From positions 103,364 through 167,363 of IMG/VR virus record IMGVR_UViG_3300035670_000018: DNA of 64,000 nt; one strand, given 5' to 3'. Below, one piece after another: positions 12,008-19,361 of the stretch. The position numbers and the translations under genes are program-made. The first letter of the stretch is position 1; each line of letters begins with the position of its first letter. The stretch is from a virus. Below the pieces are notes generated by a model that saw only the letters and a list, made by a program, of their open reading frames with translations, was not told where the DNA came from and did not search any database.

Positions 12008-12084
12008 GCCCCCTTAGCCCAGCGGTAGGAGGCACCGGACTTAAAATCCGTACAGGGACAGTTCGAATCTGTCAGGGGGTACCA
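12008..12084 (+). tRNA. tRNA-Leu(TAA), short variable loop
   Basis: Cloverleaf, CCA. Confidence 0.9.
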
Positions 12085-12089
12085 AATTT

Positions 12090-12165
12090 GCATCTGTAGC
12101 ACAGCGGTTAGTGCTATCGGCTCATAACCGATTGGTCCTTGGTTCGAATCCAAGCGGATGCACCA
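12090..12165 (+). tRNA. tRNA with CAT anticodon (Ile2 or Met)
   Basis: Cloverleaf, ATCGG-CTCATAA-CCGAT. Confidence 0.9.
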
Positions 12166-12170
12166 AATAA

Positions 12171-12260
12171 CGGAGTGAGACTAAGAGTCAGAGAGGACTT
12201 ATAAACCTTTTGCAGCCGATTACTGCCTTTGAGGTGGAGCGTTACCACCCACTCCGACCA
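12171..12260 (+). tRNA. Atypical tRNA-Ile(TAT)
   Basis: CGGAGTG/CACTCCG acceptor, CT-TAT-AA loop, long variable arm, T-loop AGCGTTA, CCA. Confidence 0.65.
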
Positions 12261-12265
12261 ATATT

Positions 12266-12342
12266 GCCCTCGTAGCCCAACTGGCAGAGGCAGCAGATTC
12301 AAATCCTGCTCAGTGTAAGTTCGACTCTTACCGAGGGCACCA
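12266..12342 (+). tRNA. tRNA-Leu(CAA), short variable loop
   Basis: Cloverleaf, CCA. Confidence 0.88.
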
Positions 12343-12351
12343 AAAAAAAAG

Positions 12352-12392
12352 TTGACAAAAACATAAAATCCAGCTAGGATGTTGTATAAATA
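12352..12392 (+). promoter_or_regulatory. Tandem sigma70 promoter and T4-type late promoter upstream of the leader ORF
   Basis: TTGACA-N17-TAGGAT (12352-12380); TATAAATA (12385-12392). Confidence 0.8.
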
Positions 12393-12416
12393 GAATACAG
12401 TTTAAGAAAGACGGAA

Positions 12417-12503
12417 ATGAAACCCATTCTACCTCCATTTACAATTAATCAAGAAACATGCCAGCCATCATGGGCAGGTGTGATGAGGGGTTCTATGTAT
12501 TAA
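12417..12503 (+). CDS. Putative attenuator leader peptide MKPILPPFTINQETCQPSWAGVMRGSMY
   Basis: 28-codon ORF between promoters and terminator; its 3' end carries the antiterminator strand. Confidence 0.7.
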   Translation: MKPILPPFTINQETCQPSWAGVMRGSMY

Positions 12504-12527
12504 GTCTTAGTACAGACTTAGTTTCTT

Positions 12528-12566
12528 AGAACCCCGAAGCCAAAAGTTTCGGGGTTCTTCGTTTTT
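12528..12566 (+). terminator. Intrinsic terminator of the attenuator
   Basis: AGAACCCCGAAGC-CAAAA-GTTTCGGGGTTCT followed by TCGTTTTT. Confidence 0.85.
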
Positions 12567-12570
12567 ATAG

Positions 12571-12645
12571 TTGCGTCCAGTGCATAGCAGATATGCGAAA
12601 AAAGAATAAGAAAAGACTTGAAATTGGCTGCGACAAGCACTATAT
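12571..12645 (+). promoter_or_regulatory. Repeated promoter copy 3, upstream of the main tRNA array
   Basis: TTGC-N7-GCAT-N7-ATGC-N20-CTTGAA-N15-CACTATAT. Confidence 0.75.
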
Positions 12646-12697
12646 TAGATATGTAAGAGAGAAAAGAGTTTCCCAGCCGCGCGGGACAAGATGCGGT

Positions 12698-12709
12698 CGC
12701 TGTTTAACA
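12698..12709 (+). promoter_or_regulatory. boxA-like antitermination element
   Basis: CGCTGTTTAACA versus rrn boxA TGCTCTTTAACA; in the leader of a stable-RNA operon. Confidence 0.55.
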
Positions 12710-12801
12710 TTGTTAAGTTCCTATGAGTTACCCTTGCTCACTCAAGGGCGCACTGAGTAGCGAAATATCCAGTGAGGGACTGTGACTCAGCACAGCCTCA
12801 C

Positions 12802-12926
12802 ATTCTATCTCTTCAGATATGCACCGGGCATTGTAGCTACTGCCTAGTGTGGCACAGTCGCGCTGCTTCGGTGGCGTTCAAGATGAACTGTTCGATTCAG
12901 TTGGTGCATATCTGAAGTGATAGAAT
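12802..12926 (+). ncRNA. tRNA-like RNA on a long closing helix
   Basis: 23-bp terminal helix; AACTG-TTCGATT-CAGTT T-arm; UUCG hairpin. Confidence 0.65.
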
Positions 12927-12930
12927 ACAT

Positions 12931-13007
12931 TCCTCTCAAGCCAACTAGGTGGAGGCAACTGACTGTTAATCAGTGTACGACAGGTTCGAATCCTGTGGGG
13001 GGAGCCA
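12931..13007 (+). tRNA. tRNA-Asn(GTT)
   Basis: Cloverleaf, CCA. Confidence 0.92.
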
Positions 13008-13013
13008 ATTCAT

Positions 13014-13100
13014 GGACCAGTCGCCTAGTGGCTATGGCAGCAGACTCTTAATCTGTCGTGAGAAATCACATCGTGGGTTCGAGTCCCACTTGGTCCTCCA
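13014..13100 (+). tRNA. tRNA-Lys(CTT) with long variable arm
   Basis: Cloverleaf, GTGA-GAAA-TCAC arm, CCA. Confidence 0.88.
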
Positions 13101-13105
13101 ATCAT

Positions 13106-13179
13106 GGCCTATTAGTGAATGGATATCACACCGCTCTGTCTAAGCGGAGAAGCGAGTTTGAGCCTCGCATAGGTCGCCA
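13106..13179 (+). tRNA. tRNA-Asp(GTC)
   Basis: Cloverleaf, CCA. Confidence 0.9.
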
Positions 13180-13250
13180 TTTAGTACGCCTGTCCCGCTT
13201 TGGGAAGTTGGGTAGGGTTGACGGCACCCTCGCAGTACGAAAGCCGTTAT

Positions 13251-13328
13251 CTGAGTGTACGAGAGTCTGGTTACATCCCATAGATTTGGAATCTATGAAC
13301 GCAGGTTCGAATCCTGCCACTCAGACCA
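13251..13328 (+). tRNA. tRNA-Pro(TGG)
   Basis: Cloverleaf with weak D-stem, CCA. Confidence 0.88.
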
Positions 13329-13333
13329 ATTAT

Positions 13334-13407
13334 ATCAGTGTAGTGTAACGGTAGCACGGCAGCCTCCAAAACTGCTTGTCAGGGTTCGAATCCTTGCACT
13401 GGTGCCA
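13334..13407 (+). tRNA. tRNA-Trp(CCA)
   Basis: Cloverleaf, CCA. Confidence 0.92.
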
Positions 13408-13576
13408 GTCAGAAAGAGCGGTAGTCGGAGTGCGAATCCGATGAGAACATGCCTGTGATCGCACACAGGCATTAAGTATCCTCACCATAGACTTCGGTCA
13501 ACATAGAGGAACGCTCTTTCTACTTGACTTTACGTGATGCCTCGTCTATAATAAGACAACAATCAACGAGGTAACT

Positions 13577-13792
13577 ATGGCAAAGATGACGATTAAGAAA
13601 GTGATGGAATTACAAGATCATTTCATCAAAGCTGGTATTATGAAAGACCCTAAGTCTTATACCGCAGATGAATTGAAGTATCTTAATCCTGCTATTCCAT
13701 CTGACTTCATTGATGATTATGTTGATGTTCGTGATGGTAAGAAGAAAGAAAGCGACTGGCAGCGTATTCCGCTGAAGATCGAAGATTTGTAA
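13577..13792 (+). CDS. Hypothetical protein within the tRNA array
   Basis: Own TTGACT/TATA promoter and GAGG SD. Confidence 0.6.
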   Translation: MAKMTIKKVMELQDHFIKAGIMKDPKSYTADELKYLNPAIPSDFIDDYVDVRDGKKKESDWQRIPLKIEDL

Positions 13793-13798
13793 TACAAT

Positions 13799-13873
13799 GG
13801 GCTTGTAGTATAATGGGTATTATCTCCCGCTTGCACCGGGAAGAACAGGGTTCGATTCCCTGCTTGTCCACCA
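13799..13873 (+). tRNA. tRNA-Ala(TGC)
   Basis: G3-U70 pair; two U-U mismatches in the acceptor; CCA. Confidence 0.85.
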
Positions 13874-13881
13874 AGTTTAAC

Positions 13882-13955
13882 GCCTCTATAGTTCAATGGC
13901 AGAACGCCTGTTTTGTAATCAGGATATCAGGGTTCGATTCCTTGTCGAGGCACCA
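13882..13955 (+). tRNA. tRNA-Thr(TGT)
   Basis: Cloverleaf, CCA. Confidence 0.92.
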
Positions 13956-13957
13956 GT

Positions 13958-14076
13958 TTAGCGTTGTAGGAGCAGAAGTGACCTTGTTGGGATGGTCTGC
14001 TGTATGCGGCTCACAGGCGAGTTGAGGGGTTTGATCACCCCAAGTCTGGCGAGGGTTCAATTCCCTCCAACGCTAA
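13958..14076 (+). ncRNA. tRNA-like RNA with 9-bp closing stem and T-arm, no anticodon arm or CCA
   Basis: TTAGCGTTG/CAACGCTAA; GAGGG-TTCAATT-CCCTC. Confidence 0.55.
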
Positions 14077-14084
14077 TCTAATTT

Positions 14085-14153
14085 GATCTGGCTACGTAGC
14101 AGCAATGTGCGTCATGAATGTCAGACAGTCAACCAAATAACTGTGCGGTTGAC
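14085..14153 (+). ncRNA. Two-hairpin structured RNA, copy 1
   Basis: Shares GCTAC, GTCAYGAATG and ACTGTGC with 14252-14335. Confidence 0.55.
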
Positions 14154-14161
14154 ACCAGTTT

Positions 14162-14247
14162 GGGTGAGCGGCAACGACGGTGAGTTGCGGCGGACTGTAA
14201 ATCCCCTGTCTATGACTTAGAAGGTTCGAATCCTTTCTCACCCACCA
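14162..14247 (+). tRNA. tRNA-Tyr(GTA)
   Basis: Cloverleaf, variable arm, CCA. Confidence 0.9.
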
Positions 14248-14251
14248 AATT

Positions 14252-14335
14252 GATTTAGCTACTCACACAGTATGGTTACGCCATATCTTAGAGTCACGAA
14301 TGCTAAACAACCAGACTTAATACTGTGCTGTCTGG
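14252..14335 (+). ncRNA. Two-hairpin structured RNA, copy 2
   Basis: Different stem sequences with pairing kept; loop-loop CACAGTA/TACTGTG. Confidence 0.6.
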
Positions 14336-14345
14336 ATTATTTTAT

Positions 14346-14431
14346 ACTACCTTATCCAAGTGGTTGAAGGAAGGCGGCCGATAACCGTCTGGCGAAAGCC
14401 CGCGTTTGTTCGAATCAAACAGGTAGTACCA
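14346..14431 (+). tRNA. tRNA-Ile(GAT) with long variable arm and C33
   Basis: Cloverleaf, GGC-GAAA-GCC arm, CCA. Confidence 0.85.
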
Positions 14432-14509
14432 TTTCCTGTGCTTGCAATCTCTCAGTTAAAAGCTGTTGCAAGATTAAGTGTTATGTCTAATATGACATAG
14501 ACACAGGAT

Positions 14510-14794
14510 CTATTCTCTTGAAGGATAAAGACCTTCAACCACCATATGTGGTACAAGTTCGTCATCATGCCATTCGCGTCTGACTTTCTTGCCATAGTCT
14601 GGTCCAGAATCAACGAATGGTCTTAAGTCTGGTAGTGCGAAAGTGTGAATACCATCGCCACCCCAACGGGTGCCCAGTAGAGAGAACAAAGGTTCATGAT
14701 GTTGAATTTCTAATATCTGCCCGCGACATACCACAGTGTCTCTTGTGTTCCAAGTAAAAGGCAGATAAACAACTTGACTAATATAAGCTTCCAT
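14510..14794 (-). CDS. Stand-alone phage tail collar domain protein
   Basis: CRGQIL...LFSLLGTRWGGDG..TFALPDLR; minus-strand ACTAAATA at 14824-14831. Confidence 0.85.
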   Translation of the reverse strand: MEAYISQVVYLPFTWNTRDTVVCRGQILEIQHHEPLFSLLGTRWGGDGIHTFALPDLRPFVDSGPDYGKKVRREWHDDELVPHMVVEGLYPSRE

Positions 14795-14834
14795 GGTATA
14801 CTCCATTATATGAGTTGACATGGTATTTAGTTAT

Positions 14835-14908
14835 TGGGAGATCATCTAAAGGTAGGATAGCGGTCTTTGAAACCGCCGATCTTGGTTCGATTCCAAGTCT
14901 CCCAGCCA
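14835..14908 (+). tRNA. tRNA-Gln(TTG)
   Basis: Cloverleaf, CCA. Confidence 0.92.
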
Positions 14909-14960
14909 ATTCGTGCTTGCATAGCATATAGTCAATAGATGTAGCCGCACTACAATAGAC

Positions 14961-15044
14961 GGACTGGTTACCGTAGTGGCGAACGGCGCTGACTTTTAAT
15001 CAGCTATGCAAACACCGTGGGTTCGAGTCCCACCCAGTCCTCCA
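14961..15044 (+). tRNA. tRNA-Lys(TTT) with long variable loop
   Basis: Cloverleaf, CCA. Confidence 0.88.
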
Positions 15045-15049
15045 ATTAT

Positions 15050-15124
15050 GGCGCATTAGTTTAGTGGTCAGAATACTGGGCTTTCAATCCGGGGAGAAGG
15101 GTTCAATTCCCTTATGCGCTGCCA
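15050..15124 (+). tRNA. tRNA-Glu(TTC)
   Basis: Cloverleaf, CCA. Confidence 0.92.
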
Positions 15125-15129
15125 AATAT

Positions 15130-15207
15130 TGCGGGATAGAGCAGTCAGGTCAGCTTGCTAGGTTCATATCCTAGAGGTCGCAGGTTCGAATCCTGCTCCC
15201 GCTTCCA
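15130..15207 (+). tRNA. Initiator-type tRNA-Met(CAT)
   Basis: 1:72 mismatch; GCGGG acceptor; fMet-like D-arm. Confidence 0.85.
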
Positions 15208-15208
15208 T

Positions 15209-15283
15209 GCTGCATTAGTCTAGTGGTTAAGACGCAGGTCTGTGAAACCTGTTACGGCGGTTCGATTCCTCCATGCAGTACCA
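15209..15283 (+). tRNA. tRNA-His(GTG), no encoded G-1, A73
   Basis: Cloverleaf preceded by T and ending ACCA. Confidence 0.9.
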
Positions 15284-15288
15284 TTTAT

Positions 15289-15362
15289 TGCCCGGTCGTC
15301 TAACGGTAGGACGCCAGATTCTGACTCTGGCTATCGTGGTTCGAATCCATGCTGGGCAGCCA
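15289..15362 (+). tRNA. tRNA-Gln(CTG)
   Basis: Cloverleaf, CCA. Confidence 0.92.
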
Positions 15363-15366
15363 ATAT

Positions 15367-15441
15367 GGGGTAATGGTGAAATGGGAACACCGTGGTCTGC
15401 AAAACCATTATGAGTAGGTTCGATTCCTACTTACCCCTCCA
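15367..15441 (+). tRNA. tRNA-Cys(GCA)
   Basis: Cloverleaf, U73, CCA. Confidence 0.92.
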
Positions 15442-15447
15442 AACTAT

Positions 15448-15541
15448 GCATCCGTATCCCCCTTGGCTACGAACCAAGAGTAAGGTAACTGGAGATGGTC
15501 AGAGATGACTAATGCAGGTTCGAATCCTGTCGGATGCTCCA
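15448..15541 (+). tRNA. Atypical tRNA-Arg(ACG), no D-arm, expanded variable region
   Basis: GCATCCG/CGGATGC acceptor, CTTGG-CTACGAA-CCAAG, canonical T-arm, CCA. Confidence 0.75.
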
Positions 15542-15557
15542 CTAAAGGAAAACAACA

Positions 15558-15920
15558 ATGAAACTATTAATAGCAGCCTTTGCTGCCCTATTTTTAATGA
15601 CAGCACCCAGTAATGCTACAACAATGGTAGCATCATGGTATGATTGTGTTAAGCCTGGTGAATGTAGTAAACATAAGATTACTGCAAGCGGGCAAAAATT
15701 CAATCCAAATGCTTTAACAGCAGCACACAAGACATTGCCTTTCGGCACAAGACTGAGAGTTACACACAAAGGAAGATCGGTAATAGTAGTAATTAATGAT
15801 AGGGGCCCGTTCATTAGAGGCAGACATTTAGACCTATCAAGAGCAGCAGCAAGAAAGATTGGCTGCGGTGGAGTTTGCACAGTCAAGGTTGAAATCTTAG
15901 GAAAGAAGAAGAAAAGATAG
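15558..15920 (+). CDS. RlpA-like (double-psi beta-barrel) lytic transglycosylase, secreted
   Basis: Signal peptide; ASWY...TASGQKF...TAAHKTLPFGT...INDRGPF...LDLS. Confidence 0.9.
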   Translation: MKLLIAAFAALFLMTAPSNATTMVASWYDCVKPGECSKHKITASGQKFNPNALTAAHKTLPFGTRLRVTHKGRSVIVVINDRGPFIRGRHLDLSRAAARKIGCGGVCTVKVEILGKKKKR

Positions 15921-16081
15921 ACTTGACAACATGTGGGATTTAGTCTAATATATACATCGTGGCGGTAAGTAATGCGTTCCGTCATCCCGCAGCTAGAGGT
16001 TTGTGAGTGGACTGTTGACTGGAAACTCTCATTAACACAATAGTGGAGGCCGTAACCACTTTAAGAAATCGGAGCGAAATT

Positions 16082-16169
16082 GGATAGGTGGCAGAGTGGT
16101 CTATCGCATCGGTCTTGAAAACCGAAGTACCTTCGGGTACCGTAGGTTCGAATCCTACCCTATCCGCCA
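16082..16169 (+). tRNA. tRNA-Ser(TGA)
   Basis: Type II cloverleaf, CCA. Confidence 0.95.
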
Positions 16170-16186
16170 AACAAGAGGAAGATACA

Positions 16187-16333
16187 ATGAGTAAAGATTG
16201 TGGTTGTGGAAGAAGTCCGACTGGTAAGTGTATCGGTTGGCATGGGTTGACAAATGAACAATACTCTGCTAAACTACAAGAATACGAAAAGAAGAACTTG
16301 ACGGAATCAGCTCCTCAGTTGCTTCGTGATTGA
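16187..16333 (+). CDS. Small CDGSH-like Fe-S/Zn-binding protein
   Basis: CGCGRSPTGKCIGWH; GAGG SD. Confidence 0.6.
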   Translation: MSKDCGCGRSPTGKCIGWHGLTNEQYSAKLQEYEKKNLTESAPQLLRD

Positions 16334-16339
16334 ATAAAC

Positions 16340-16415
16340 GCTGCCTTGGTATAGCTGGTGCGTACATGCGCCTGAAGAGCGTGGGGACTCTGTTCGATTC
16401 AGAGAGGCAGCACCA
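16340..16415 (+). tRNA. tRNA-Phe(GAA)
   Basis: Cloverleaf, CCA. Confidence 0.9.
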
Positions 16416-16586
16416 TTTAGAGAGTTAATATGAAACTTAAAACTTGGTGGAAACATGCTGTGTTCCATTATGACATTCTAAAGGTGGATGATACTTGTGT
16501 TGATTACCTTAAGATGGTAACATTCTGGCATCCCGAATACAAAGAGTATCAGACAACAGTAAGTCATGTTTCAAACATAGAATAAT

Positions 16587-16620
16587 GCGTCTTGGGAGGT
16601 GATGGTCACCTCACCGCTCT
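16587..16620 (+). pseudogene. 5' half of a tRNA gene cut off at the anticodon loop
   Basis: GCGTCTT-GG-GAGG-TGATGGTCA-CCTC-A-CCGCT-CT, then the endonuclease promoter; no 3' half found. Confidence 0.65.
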
Positions 16621-16640
16621 CTGAAATACTAAATAGTAGT

Positions 16641-17213
16641 ATGAGATACACCATTTACAAAACGACTAATACAGTCAACGGCAAATACTACATTGGTAAA
16701 CATCAAACCATTGATCCAATGGATAACTATCTGGGTTCAGGTAAGGCTATTGCTAATGCCATAAAACTACACGGTAAAGATTCTTTTGTGAAAGAAGTTC
16801 TGTTTGATTTTGATACAGAAGAGGAAATGAACAGTAAAGAGCGTGAACTTATTACTGAAGATATCGTAAACGATCCGATGTCTTACAATTTAGGTGTCGG
16901 TGGAGAAGGCGGTCCTCACTTCAGTGGAAGAAAACATACAGACGAAACGCGAAAAAAACAGAAAAACGCAAATACAGGTCGTGTCTATGATTACGATAAG
17001 TATAGCGAAGAAAGAAAAAAGACCTTCTTTACTGAAGGCAATGAATACTGGAAGAAAAGAAAAAAGAACTTTCATACGGAAGAGAGCAAACAAAAGATTC
17101 GAGAAAAAAGGTTATTACAACCAACACCGAATTTAGGGCGCAAAATGTCTGAGGAACAAAAAGAAAAGATTCGTCAGACGCTTCTAAAGCGAAACAAGAA
17201 TATGCCTGTGTAG
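16641..17213 (+). CDS. GIY-YIG homing endonuclease (SegB-like position in the tRNA array)
   Basis: TIYKTTN...YYIGKH...YLGSG; NUMOD3 repeats; TACTAAATA at 16627. Confidence 0.9.
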   Translation: MRYTIYKTTNTVNGKYYIGKHQTIDPMDNYLGSGKAIANAIKLHGKDSFVKEVLFDFDTEEEMNSKERELITEDIVNDPMSYNLGVGGEGGPHFSGRKHTDETRKKQKNANTGRVYDYDKYSEERKKTFFTEGNEYWKKRKKNFHTEESKQKIREKRLLQPTPNLGRKMSEEQKEKIRQTLLKRNKNMPV

Positions 17214-17278
17214 TTCATTGATAGAACATGCGTCTCATAAGCGCAATGTAGGTGGTTTGATTCCACCCACAGGCACCA
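17204..17278 (+). tRNA. tRNA-Met(CAT), overlapping the endonuclease stop codon
   Basis: Cloverleaf, CCA. Confidence 0.88.
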
Positions 17279-17289
17279 AATAAATAGAA

Positions 17290-17495
17290 TGCTAACTCCG
17301 ACGGGAGTTGGCCGAGTGCAAGGAAATGACTGCTCACCAGGAGCGGTTAACTTGGCTAGATGGTGTGGTGCCCGTGCGCGACTGACGAGAGTCAGAGGCG
17401 TATCGTCTCCGACCAAGAGAATCTAGGCTGACACGTGGCAGATACAAGGTATCTTGGTCGTGTCTTGTGGGTGTACCCCAGTCCCACCTCACCTT
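17290..17495 (+). ncRNA. About 200-nt structured RNA, manA-motif-like
   Basis: Several hairpins; CGACCAAGA/TCTTGGTCG; GTGGG/CCCAC end; GTGCAAGG and GGTGTGGTGCCCG resemble the manA RNA from memory; adjacent to tRNAs. Confidence 0.55.
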
Positions 17496-17502
17496 ATTAA
17501 AT

Positions 17503-17576
17503 GCGGGTTTGTTGTAGTGGTAGCGAACTACCTTGCCATGGTAGAAGCGCGGGTTCGATTCCCGCATCCCGCTCCA
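17503..17576 (+). tRNA. tRNA-Gly(GCC)
   Basis: Cloverleaf, U73, CCA. Confidence 0.9.
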
Positions 17577-17772
17577 ATCATAAATACCAATATGCTAACT
17601 ATTCTATTTGTATTTTTGTTGTTGGGAACAGAAGTTCTTGCTTTCCTTATCATGATAGTGGTGTTAACATATGAAAAGATGTTTCCTAAAGAAGAACAGA
17701 AAAACAATATATTCTATGATGATAAGATGATAAATATTGATGACCAATCAAGGTCAAACACGAGGTAAGAAT

Positions 17773-17946
17773 ATGTTGAACACAGTTGTTGTTTTGGTTC
17801 TTGTTGCTGTTGTACTATGGGTCGGTTGGACTCTTTGGCAGAACGGCTGGGATGTAAAGAAGGCAGGTGCTGCTCTTGTAGCTGCGGCCGCTGCTGCTTG
17901 GCTCTGGATATCAGATTCGATTACATCTCTAACCGCAGGCATGTAA
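17773..17946 (+). CDS. Small two-TM membrane protein
   Basis: GAGG SD; two hydrophobic segments. Confidence 0.6.
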   Translation: MLNTVVVLVLVAVVLWVGWTLWQNGWDVKKAGAALVAAAAAAWLWISDSITSLTAGM

Positions 17947-18057
17947 TCTAGAAACCGCTCTTGGCCCGTAGCGGTATAGAAGTCTTCTGGGTAAGTCGTG
18001 CAAATGCTAATTCCAAATTATCAGGTTGCAGGACAAGCTAACGGGCTTCCAATTCAA

Positions 18058-18132
18058 GCTTCTTTCGCCAAATGGGAAGGCATCGGTTTTACACACCGAC
18101 ATGACAAGGTTCGATTCCTTGAAGAAGCACCA
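18058..18132 (+). tRNA. tRNA-Val(TAC)
   Basis: Cloverleaf, CCA. Confidence 0.92.
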
Positions 18133-18137
18133 TTAAT

Positions 18138-18219
18138 GCGAGTATGGTGAAATGGCAGACACACTTGCCTTAGAAGCAAGCGCGAAAGCATGGGGGTTCA
18201 AGTCCCTCTACTCGCACCA
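18138..18219 (+). tRNA. tRNA-Leu(TAG)
   Basis: Type II cloverleaf, CCA. Confidence 0.93.
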
Positions 18220-18225
18220 ATCACT

Positions 18226-18299
18226 GCCTCTATAGTTCAAAGGCAGAACACGGCTTTGGTAAAGCCGAAACACAGGATCGTTACCTGTTAGAGGCACCA
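18226..18299 (+). tRNA. tRNA-Thr(GGT)
   Basis: Cloverleaf, T-loop ATCGTTA, CCA. Confidence 0.88.
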
Positions 18300-18314
18300 T
18301 TTAGGAACTTAACA

Positions 18315-18812
18315 ATGATCAGAAAGAATATGGATTTAGACGAAGTTCGTGCATTCATCCAAGCACAATCTCCCGAAACAAAGATTTATCTAGGTGGCGA
18401 CTCTGAACGCTTTCAGTTGAATGGTGTATGGATGGCTGACTACATCAACGTTGTCGTTGTTCATAAGAACGGCAAGAACGGTTGTCGTGTGTTCGGTTCT
18501 GTTGTGCGTGAGCGTGACTATGACCAGCAGAAGGACAAGCCACGTATGCGTCTCATGAATGAAGTAATGAAGACTGCACAGCTTTACCTTGATCTGGAAG
18601 AAGCTATCGGTGAACGTGACTTTGAAATTCATCTGGACATCAATCCTGACTTGAAACACGGCTCATCTTGTGTTATAAATGAAGCTGTTGGTTACATTCG
18701 TGGTATGTGTAATGTGGTACCGCTAGTGAAGCCAAATGCTTGGGCAGCATCTTACTGTGCTGACAGGTACAAGGACGCTATTCAACATATTCCACAAGTG
18801 AAGGTAGGATAA
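18315..18812 (+). CDS. RNase H-like YkuK (DUF458) family protein
   Basis: IYLGGDS...RLMNEV...EIHLDIN...KPNAWAASYCAD. Confidence 0.8.
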   Translation: MIRKNMDLDEVRAFIQAQSPETKIYLGGDSERFQLNGVWMADYINVVVVHKNGKNGCRVFGSVVRERDYDQQKDKPRMRLMNEVMKTAQLYLDLEEAIGERDFEIHLDINPDLKHGSSCVINEAVGYIRGMCNVVPLVKPNAWAASYCADRYKDAIQHIPQVKVG

Positions 18813-18816
18813 AATT

Positions 18817-19266
18817 ATGACTAAGTTTTTTGTTATGTTGGCAGTGATGGCTGCTGCAATCTTTATGCTTGCTACTGGCACTAGAGCAGGAGTTGAACCT
18901 CTTGGTGAGCATGAAGTGATTATTAGGATTGACAAGTCCGATCAGAAGATGTACGTAGAAACGCCTACTGATTATTTTGAGTGGGATGTTTCTACTGGTC
19001 GTAAGGGTTATCGTACTCCTGTTGGCGTGTTTCAGCCCTATCTTTTGAGACCGATGCATTACTCAAGCAAGTATAATAACGCGCCGATGCCTCATTCAAT
19101 TTTCTTTCATGGTGGTTATGCAATTCATGCGACAACAGAAGTAAAGAAGCTTGGTCAACCCGCATCACATGGATGTATTCGTCTTAGCCCTCAGAATGCT
19201 CGTTGGTTGTATCGCATCGTAAACGAGTACGGCAAGTATAATACATATATAGAGATTACAGAATAA
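18817..19266 (+). CDS. L,D-transpeptidase (YkuD family), secreted
   Basis: Signal peptide; VSTG..TP.G; GYAIH...ASHGCIRL. Confidence 0.92.
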   Translation: MTKFFVMLAVMAAAIFMLATGTRAGVEPLGEHEVIIRIDKSDQKMYVETPTDYFEWDVSTGRKGYRTPVGVFQPYLLRPMHYSSKYNNAPMPHSIFFHGGYAIHATTEVKKLGQPASHGCIRLSPQNARWLYRIVNEYGKYNTYIEITE

Positions 19267-19270
19267 TATA

Positions 19271-19361
19271 GGAAGGATGGCCGAGAGGCCGAAGGCACCT
19301 CACTGCTAACGAGGCGTACCCTAATCAGGTACCGTGGGTTCGAATCCCACTCCTTCCGCCA
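19271..19361 (+). tRNA. tRNA-Ser(GCT)
   Basis: Type II cloverleaf, CCA. Confidence 0.95.

What the first reader, a model, noticed from the sequence alone, without database searches (positions are those of the whole stretch)
14085..14335. Duplicated two-hairpin kissing-loop RNA flanking tRNA-Tyr
Seen: two elements (14085-14153 and 14252-14335) share GCTAC...GTCAYGAATG and ACTGTGC, while the stems differ but still pair (TCTGGC/GTCAGA vs TTTAGC/GCTAAA; GTCAACC/GGTTGAC vs CCAGAC/GTCTGG). Loop-loop pairing is possible (CACAGTA/TACTGTG in copy 2, GCAG/CTGT in copy 1). I cannot match them to a known riboswitch or ribozyme. Inference: an undescribed RNA motif, possibly a self-cleaving or processing element or a protein decoy.
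Basis: partly seen in the sequence, partly recalled or inferred. Interest (0 to 1): 0.7.

Follow-up and report, generated by a model that had tools for sequence, protein, structure and literature searches.

The report
New structured RNA in phage tRNA arrays
Two copies of a conserved, previously undescribed folded RNA flank the tyrosine tRNA gene in the tRNA cluster of an uncultivated T4-like freshwater phage; the fold is well supported, but what the RNA does is unknown.

Summary
Elements at 14084-14153 (W1) and 14251-14335 (W2) share the reported boxes, and their stems differ but still pair.

They belong to a real family. I found 14 distinct "type A" sequences and 9 "type B" sequences in about 30 viral or metagenome contigs, plus a looser "type C". 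All lie inside tRNA arrays of related phages, 4-8 nt after a tRNA 3' end and on the tRNA strand.

Pair counts support the fold:
- Type A: 97.1% of cells paired, 7 pairs changed on both sides.
- Type B: 97.3% paired, 14 such pairs.

The refined fold is a 2-bp P1 extension, a bulged A, P1, a variable arm P1a closed by AC/GU, a conserved 7-nt strand CAYGAAU, then P2 with a conserved 10-13 nt loop.

No Rfam family matches any type. The elements are not tRNA-like, cannot form an HDV-like fold, and are not homologous to T4 rnaC/rnaD. The pattern found no member in 185,579 prokaryote species genomes.

The proposed kissing loop is not a family feature. It is 8 nt in W2 and at most 4 Watson-Crick nt elsewhere.

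Best reading: a stable small RNA cut out of the tRNA precursor and recognised by a protein. Self-cleavage remains possible but untested. The scan had noted this same stretch once before, from an overlapping window, and not on other DNA.

The parts
13524..13552 (+). Sigma-70-like promoter (TTGACT-17-TATAAT). It probably starts the unit orf71 - tRNA-Ala - tRNA-Thr - tRNA-like RNA - W1 - tRNA-Tyr - W2 - tRNA-Ile.
   Evidence: 11 of 12 consensus positions. This is a consensus match only. No stronger promoter match (at most 10 of 12) and no terminator-like site lies between it and W1/W2.
14084..14153 (+). W1, a type A element. P1 extension U14084-G14085 pairs with C14126-A14127. A14086 is bulged. 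P1 is 14087-14092 with 14120-14125. U14093 is unpaired. P1a is 14094-14112 (AC...GU closing pairs, GCAA tetraloop). The conserved strand CAUGAAU is 14113-14119. P2 is 14128-14134 with 14147-14153, with loop AAAUAACUGUGC at 14135-14146.
   Evidence: (96.9 bits).
14162..14247 (+). tRNA-Tyr (GUA), flanked by the two elements.
14251..14335 (+). W2, a divergent type A paralogue. P1 extension 14251-14252 pairs with 14308-14309. A14253 is bulged. P1 is 14254-14259 with 14302-14307. P1a is 14261-14294, a longer arm with inner hairpin UAUGG/CCAUA. The conserved strand CACGAAU is 14295-14301. P2 is 14311-14316 with 14330-14335, with loop UUAAUACUGUGCU at 14317-14329.
   Evidence: (54.2 bits, E 2.4e-9).
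14266..14273 (+). CACAGUAU in the 5' side of W2 P1a. It is complementary to AUACUGUG (14320-14327) in the W2 P2 loop. This possible pseudoknot is specific to W2.
   Evidence: Relatives reach only 3-4 WC nt. Type B carries a CACAG box at the same place, but there it pairs with CUGUG inside P1a.

Best explanation
W1 and W2 are two paralogous members of an undescribed family of 70-115 nt structured RNAs. The family lives inside the tRNA arrays of a clade of uncultivated T4-like freshwater and subsurface phages.

The elements have no recognisable promoter or terminator of their own. They sit 4-8 nt after the CCA of one tRNA and about 8 nt before the next gene, on the tRNA strand.

Proposed mechanism:
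1. The element is transcribed as part of the polycistronic tRNA precursor.
2. It is released by the enzymes that mature its neighbours: RNase P at the 5' end of the downstream tRNA, and RNase E or exonucleases behind the upstream CCA.
3. It persists as a stable small RNA.

The fold is largely rod-like: P1a, an asymmetric internal loop, P1 with a bulged A, then P2. The variable arm P1a is peripheral. About 25 invariant unpaired nucleotides lie in the CAYGAAU strand and the P2 loop. I infer that these form a specific recognition surface, most likely for a phage or host protein, so that the RNA acts as part of an RNP or as a decoy.

Shown: family, fold, strand and context. Inferred: excision, stability and protein binding.
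For: Family and fold:
- 14 type A and 9 type B distinct sequences.
- Pair counts are 97.1% and 97.3% paired, with 7 and 14 pairs changed on both sides. No shuffle reaches the observed cells paired, cells with double changes or covariation score, and slid controls reach 22-51% paired.
- RNAalifold independently recovers P1, P2 and the UG/CA extension. That extension covaries in type B (UA/UA, CA/UG).
- A structural descriptor finds 22 distinct sequences against 3 in shuffles.
- The type B model, built without L122, hits the L122 type A element at E 8e-13, which links the two types.

P1a as a peripheral arm:
- It varies from 12 to 51 nt, with interchangeable GNRA loops GUGA, GCAA and GUAA.

Context:
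- The element always follows a tRNA 3' end directly, on the tRNA strand.
- The best promoter match upstream is 13524-13552, and no terminator-like site lies before W1 or W2.
- A 1216-nt contig from a freshwater metatranscriptome library carries a relative's element together with tRNA-Ile.

Precedent:
- T4 keeps two stable small RNAs of unknown role, rnaC and rnaD, at the end of its tRNA cluster.
Against: - No transcript ends, abundance or stability were measured. The RNA-library evidence is a contig, which cannot show ends or exclude DNA carry-over.
- No binding protein is identified.
- A rod-like fold is assumed. In types B and C a 4-6 nt linker separates P1 and P2, so a compact fold is possible.
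- Two candidate tertiary pairings exist (UCAYG with UGUGA, and UAC with GUG), which would suit a ribozyme or aptamer core as well as a protein site.
- The family is small and its members are closely related, so part of the pair statistics reflects shared ancestry.
Confidence: 0.5

Rival explanations
1. The element is a new class of self-cleaving ribozyme. It trims the 3' trailer of the upstream tRNA or separates array members, as proposed for theta (HDV-like) ribozymes in gut phages.
For: - It lies within 4-8 nt of a tRNA 3' end, as theta ribozymes lie within 5 nt.
- It is small, with a variable peripheral arm.
- About 25 invariant nucleotides lie in a junction strand and a loop, and these could pair with each other (UCAYG/UGUGA, 3-5 bp in every type, read from the sequences).
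Against: - No Rfam ribozyme family matches at E<=10.
- The HDV-like P2 pairing cannot be formed, and the hammerhead core is absent (read from the sequences).
- In type A, P1 and P2 abut with no linker, which favours a coaxial rod that keeps the loop and the conserved strand apart.
- The candidate tertiary pairs never covary, because the loop is nearly invariant.
- Host RNase P and RNase E already explain processing of the many element-free spacers in the same array.
Confidence: 0.12
2. The element is a passive processing or folding spacer. It is a stable hairpin module that insulates the unusual class II tRNA-Tyr from its neighbours, presents the AU-rich flanks to RNase E and RNase P, and is then degraded.
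For: - It occupies a tRNA-like slot flanked by the same AAUUU and AGUUU spacers seen between plain tRNAs.
- Most copies lie next to tRNA-Tyr, across three different tRNA-Tyr sequence types.
- A relative, L151, lacks the element altogether and joins tRNA-Ala to tRNA-Tyr directly, so it is dispensable.
Against: - A mere spacer would not keep about 25 unpaired nucleotides invariant while its stems change.
- Type C sits between tRNA-His and tRNA-Gln, not near tRNA-Tyr.
- Tandem A+B pairs occur.
Confidence: 0.2
3. The element is a cis-regulatory leader (riboswitch, attenuator or protein-binding operator) that controls a downstream gene, for example the small S4/TyrRS-C-terminal-like ORF that follows it in some relatives.
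For: - In L129, L137, L140 and L163, P2 is followed by a ribosome-binding site and a 58-59 aa S4-domain ORF. Pfam gives S4 at 2e-12 and SYY_C-terminal at 2.9e-10.
- In L129 and L137, P2 is followed by a U run.
Against: - In the window and most relatives the next gene is a tRNA or another copy of the element, not an ORF.
- The window's genome has no homologue of the S4 ORF.
Confidence: 0.05
4. The element is a decayed tRNA gene or a chance similarity with no function of its own.
For: Its length (about 70-80 nt) and its position are those of a tRNA.
Against: - The tRNA covariance model does not touch the elements even at E<=10.
- There are no acceptor or T-arm features.
- The stems are kept by compensatory changes, and the loops are invariant across contigs whose flanking tRNAs differ.
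Confidence: 0.02

Closest known systems
Phage T4 species 1 and species 2 RNAs (rnaC, rnaD)
   Same: They are small stable RNAs of unknown function, encoded in the tRNA cluster of a T4-type phage, on the tRNA strand and separated from tRNAs by a few nucleotides. The window's phage is T4-like, with about 50% DNA polymerase identity to cyanomyoviruses.
   Different: There is no sequence or structure homology. Model R1 gives no hit in the rnaC/rnaD interval, and the best hit elsewhere in the T4 region is 11.7 bits. rnaC carries a tRNA-like T arm, which the present elements lack.
Theta (minimal HDV-like) ribozymes next to phage tRNAs (PMC10879173)
   Same: They lie immediately beside phage tRNA genes, and a role in tRNA 3'-trailer processing is proposed.
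   Different: The nested double-pseudoknot fold cannot be drawn here. No HDV-like Rfam family matches. The habitat also differs: gut phages versus freshwater and subsurface T4-like phages.
manA RNA (RF01745) and other orphan phage RNA motifs (wcaG, GOLLD, ROOL)
   Same: These are conserved structured RNAs of unknown function carried by T4-like phages. A manA RNA sits in this same tRNA array at 17294-17495, between tRNA-Met and tRNA-Gly. That GOLLD and ROOL often neighbour tRNAs is my own knowledge.
   Different: Their folds and sizes are unrelated, and no Rfam match covers the elements.
Pistol ribozyme (resemblance recalled from memory only)
   Same: It combines one hairpin with a stem that has an internal loop, and the hairpin loop pairs with the internal-loop strand.
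   Different: The order of the parts is mirrored (hairpin 3' rather than 5'), the conserved nucleotides differ, and Rfam Pistol does not match at E<=10.

Membership tests
Any Rfam 15 family | Covariance-model score at or near the family's gathering threshold | tested here: not met
   Gathering scan of the window. E<=10 scans of 13940-14560 and of L134 and L122, which carry types A, B and C. No match overlaps any element.
tRNA / tRNA-like | Cloverleaf with acceptor stem and T arm (RF00005, ARAGORN) | tested here: not met
   ARAGORN and RF00005 at E<=10 call the flanking tRNAs but not the elements.
HDV-like / theta ribozyme | Location within a few nucleotides of a tRNA end | tested here: met
   The element starts 4-8 nt after the CCA of the upstream tRNA. 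Theta ribozymes lie within 5 nt.
HDV-like / theta ribozyme | Nested double pseudoknot, in which P2 pairs the segment after the P1 5' strand with the 3' tail and a short P3 leads directly into the P1 3' strand | tested here: not met
   Read from the sequences. No complement of UACG exists downstream of P2 in W1, W2 or relatives. About 11 nt separate the inner hairpin from the P1 3' strand. No HDV-family Rfam hit.
Hammerhead ribozyme | Conserved core CUGANGA ... GAAA around a three-way junction | tested here: not met
   The core is absent from the sequences, and there is no Rfam hammerhead hit at E<=10.
T4 rnaC / rnaD stable RNAs | Position inside a T4-type phage tRNA cluster on the tRNA strand | tested here: met
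T4 rnaC / rnaD stable RNAs | Sequence or structure homology to rnaC or rnaD | tested here: not met
   R1 run with filters off on the T4 region gives no hit in 1909-2172 of L166. The sequences are unlike.
   8 WC nt in W2 only. The other 13 type A sequences have 3-4 WC nt, and where 4-5 (with G-U) they use the stem of the GNRA hairpin.
Self-cleaving ribozyme (any class) | Site-specific self-scission in vitro | not testable with these tools
   This needs a bench assay.

The most novel reading that the evidence does not exclude
The conserved strand and P2 loop form the active site or binding pocket of something new. One option is a new class of self-cleaving ribozyme that matures phage tRNA arrays independently of host RNases. 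The other is a decoy RNA that titrates a host tRNA-directed defence nuclease or tRNA-modifying enzyme. The P2 loop of type A carries CUGUGA, which resembles a GUN anticodon loop, and the elements cluster around tRNA-Tyr.
Probability: 0.12. Interest if true: 0.85.

Novelty: new member of a known kind. Interest (0 to 1): 0.5.

Why it matters
Phage tRNA arrays are now seen as tools for sustaining translation and escaping tRNA-targeting host defences. Yet the non-tRNA RNAs embedded in them, such as T4 rnaC and rnaD, have had no known function for about 50 years.

This family offers a compact and tractable case. It has three subtypes, a variable arm and an invariant core, and it is often present in two copies. 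It can be synthesised and tested directly for self-cleavage, for processing by RNase P or RNase E, and for protein binding.

If it proves catalytic or acts as a decoy, it would add a new functional class to phage tRNA islands. If it is only a stable by-product, it still gives annotators a model for a recurrent "gap" in these arrays.

Tried and rejected
- The first IMG/VR pattern (GTCAYGAATG ... It returned only chance matches and one conserved coding gene with fixed 49-nt spacing.
- Megablast of 13000-15500 against cultured phages found nothing. Distant blastn matched only tRNA-Tyr.
- A neighbour-protein search with the 103-aa tail-collar ORF found no relatives.
- R1 candidates at L122:531-626 (20.7 bits, coding region), L175 and L162 are chance matches.
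- The genome contigs pattern scan returned 9 stretches, none confirmed by R1.
- R1 does not detect type B, and R2 finds no type B in the window's genome.
- Tertiary pairing could not be resolved. Two registers are possible in all types (UCAYG:UGUGA and UAC:GUG), but the loop is invariant, so no covariation can separate them. The first register with a 0-1 nt connector also looks sterically strained.
- K-turn, hairpin-ribozyme loop A and T-loop readings of the conserved strand and loop were considered and dropped, because the required partner nucleotides are missing or not conserved.
- A small peptide reading of the AUG in CAUGAAUG was dropped, because the stems covary and the frames are not kept.
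- Read laying returned only Logan contigs. The parts of the stretch without cover, and the RNA-library contig, say nothing about transcript ends or levels.
- Any link to the S4-like ORF is not general.

Full report
**Setting.** The window is the last 64 kb of a 167-kb IMG/VR virus record.
- Its DNA polymerase is a T4-type family B enzyme, about 50% identical to those of cyanomyoviruses.
- ARAGORN finds 27 tRNA genes at 12008-19361, all on the + strand.
- Rfam adds a manA RNA at 17294-17495 inside the array.
- Near-identical DNA occurs in subsurface metagenomes. Freshwater and lake runs hold only a small share of its words (0.06-0.24), and of these only RNA libraries X13, X17, X18 and X20 were laid.

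**Observation.** The sequence shows two elements that flank tRNA-Tyr (14162-14247).
- Both contain TGAT, a 5-6 nt stem strand, TAC, a variable hairpin, GTCAYGAATG, the complementary stem strand, CA, and a second hairpin whose loop holds ACTGTGC.
- The stems differ between the copies but still pair.

**Family.**
- A tightened pattern scan of IMG/VR returned 24 stretches, of which 16 carry the complete element directly behind a tRNA.
- Metagenome contigs added three more.
- Scans keyed on the phage tRNA-Tyr and on a second loop type uncovered a "type B" form.
- After removing duplicates there are 14 type A and 9 type B sequences.
- A covariance model of type A (R1) scores W1 at 96.9 bits and W2 at 54.2 bits. 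These are the only hits in the whole phage genome.
- A model of type B (R2), built without L122, hits the L122 type A element at E 8e-13. L122 has a type A core with the long type B-like arm, so the two types are homologous.
- A looser "type C" has three sequences between tRNA-His and tRNA-Gln. It shares UAC, GUCGC, AAU and a loop AAUAAACGUGC, and both its stems covary.
- A structural descriptor that covers A and B finds 22 distinct sequences in 0.95 Mb searched, against 3 in shuffled sequence.
- The same pattern found no genuine member in one genome from each of 185,579 prokaryote species.
- Blast found none in cultured phages.

**Fold.**
- Type A pairs counted on A2: 97.1% of cells are standard pairs, and 7 of 15 pairs change on both sides. 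No shuffle reaches the observed covariation score, and slid controls give 22-35% paired.
- Type B on A3: 97.3% paired, and 14 of 26 pairs change on both sides.
- RNAalifold recovers P1 and P2 on its own and adds two pairs, UG with the "linker" CA, around a bulged A. In type B this extension appears as UA/UA and CA/UG, which is covariation.
- P1a is closed by invariant AC/GU. It ranges from 12 to 51 nt, carries interchangeable GNRA tetraloops in the short forms, and has a conserved GCUUGA hexaloop in the long forms.
- G-U pairs occur on the + strand only, so the structure belongs to an RNA made in the tRNA direction.
- Left unpaired and nearly invariant are the bulged A, one pyrimidine after P1, the strand CAYGAAU (CGCCAAGUU in type B) and the P2 loop.
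- The P2 loop begins GA and ends GA in most members, and AA...GC in W1, L163 and type C. That is compatible with tandem sheared pairs under a small apical loop. This last point is inference.

**Kissing loop.**
- W2 has 8 Watson-Crick nucleotides between its P1a and its P2 loop.
- W1 has 3. The other type A members have 3-4, and where 4-5 (with G-U) the nucleotides lie in the stem of the GNRA hairpin.
- Type B carries a CACAG box at the same place as W2, but it pairs with CUGUG inside P1a, with a CGCAG/CUGCG double change in L155.
- The loop-loop contact may therefore be real in W2, but it does not define the family.
- Two other tertiary registers are possible in all types and cannot be separated without variation in the loop.

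**What it is not.**
- No Rfam family matches at E<=10 on types A, B or C.
- It is not a tRNA or a tRNA mimic.
- It cannot form the HDV-like fold of the theta ribozymes, which also sit beside phage tRNAs.
- It lacks the hammerhead core.
- It has no homology to T4 rnaC or rnaD.

**Context and mechanism.**
- Every copy lies 4-8 nt after a tRNA CCA and a few nucleotides before the next tRNA, a second element or a small ORF.
- In the window, the best promoter match upstream is at 13524-13552, and no terminator-like site precedes the elements.
- A 1216-nt contig from a freshwater metatranscriptome library carries a relative's element and continues into tRNA-Ile. This is compatible with co-transcription but is not proof.
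- I therefore read the elements as array members that are transcribed with the tRNAs and freed by RNase P and RNase E or exonuclease action on their neighbours.
- The invariant unpaired core, next to freely varying stems and a dispensable arm, argues for a specific recognition surface. I favour protein binding, because type A looks rod-like with P1 and P2 abutting.
- A new self-cleaving class, a passive processing spacer and a cis-regulatory leader remain as rivals.

**Verdict.** This is a real, conserved and apparently undescribed RNA family of narrow distribution. It is a new member of the known kind "orphan structured RNAs of phage tRNA clusters". Its function is open and directly testable.

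Noticed in passing
window 13956-14077: A 122-nt RNA lies between tRNA-Thr and W1. It has a 9-bp acceptor-like closing stem, a canonical T arm (GAGGGTTCAATTCCCTC) and three further hairpins, but no normal anticodon loop. ARAGORN misses it, and RF00005 gives only 16.9 bits on its 3' part. Relatives L123 and L149 carry different long tRNA-like RNAs in the same slot.
   Followed up: partly
L129 11104-11280 (-), L163 4044-4223 (+); also L137, L140: A stand-alone 58-59 aa S4-domain protein resembles the C-terminal domain of tyrosyl-tRNA synthetase (Pfam S4 2e-12, SYY_C-terminal 2.9e-10). In L129, L137 and L140 it is encoded between the element and tRNA-Tyr. It is absent from the window's genome.
   Followed up: partly
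It lies between tRNA-Met and tRNA-Gly.
   Followed up: yes
window 14432-14520: A strongly folded double hairpin lies after tRNA-Ile (-25.4 kcal/mol, z -3.78, 0 of 200 shuffles as good). It sits at the end of the transcription unit and faces a convergent tail-collar-domain ORF (14510-14821, minus strand). It may be the unit's 3' end or terminator.
   Followed up: no
window 12166-12265, 13180-13250, 13408-13520; L122 3501-3696: Several other inter-tRNA gaps in this array and in relatives hold non-coding stretches that look structured by eye. One is a conserved element of about 190 nt between tRNA-Tyr and tRNA-Ile in L122, L130, L131 and L147. The array is rich in unannotated RNAs.
   Followed up: no
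L131, L133, L134, L135, L139 (for example L133 4480-4673): Type A and type B elements occur in direct tandem, separated by about 4 nt, upstream of a second type of tRNA-Tyr (GGGTAGGTAAAGC...).
   Followed up: partly
window 16599-17213: A homing-endonuclease-like ORF (phrog_314, 4e-44) lies inside the tRNA array, as segB does in the T4 tRNA cluster.
   Followed up: no
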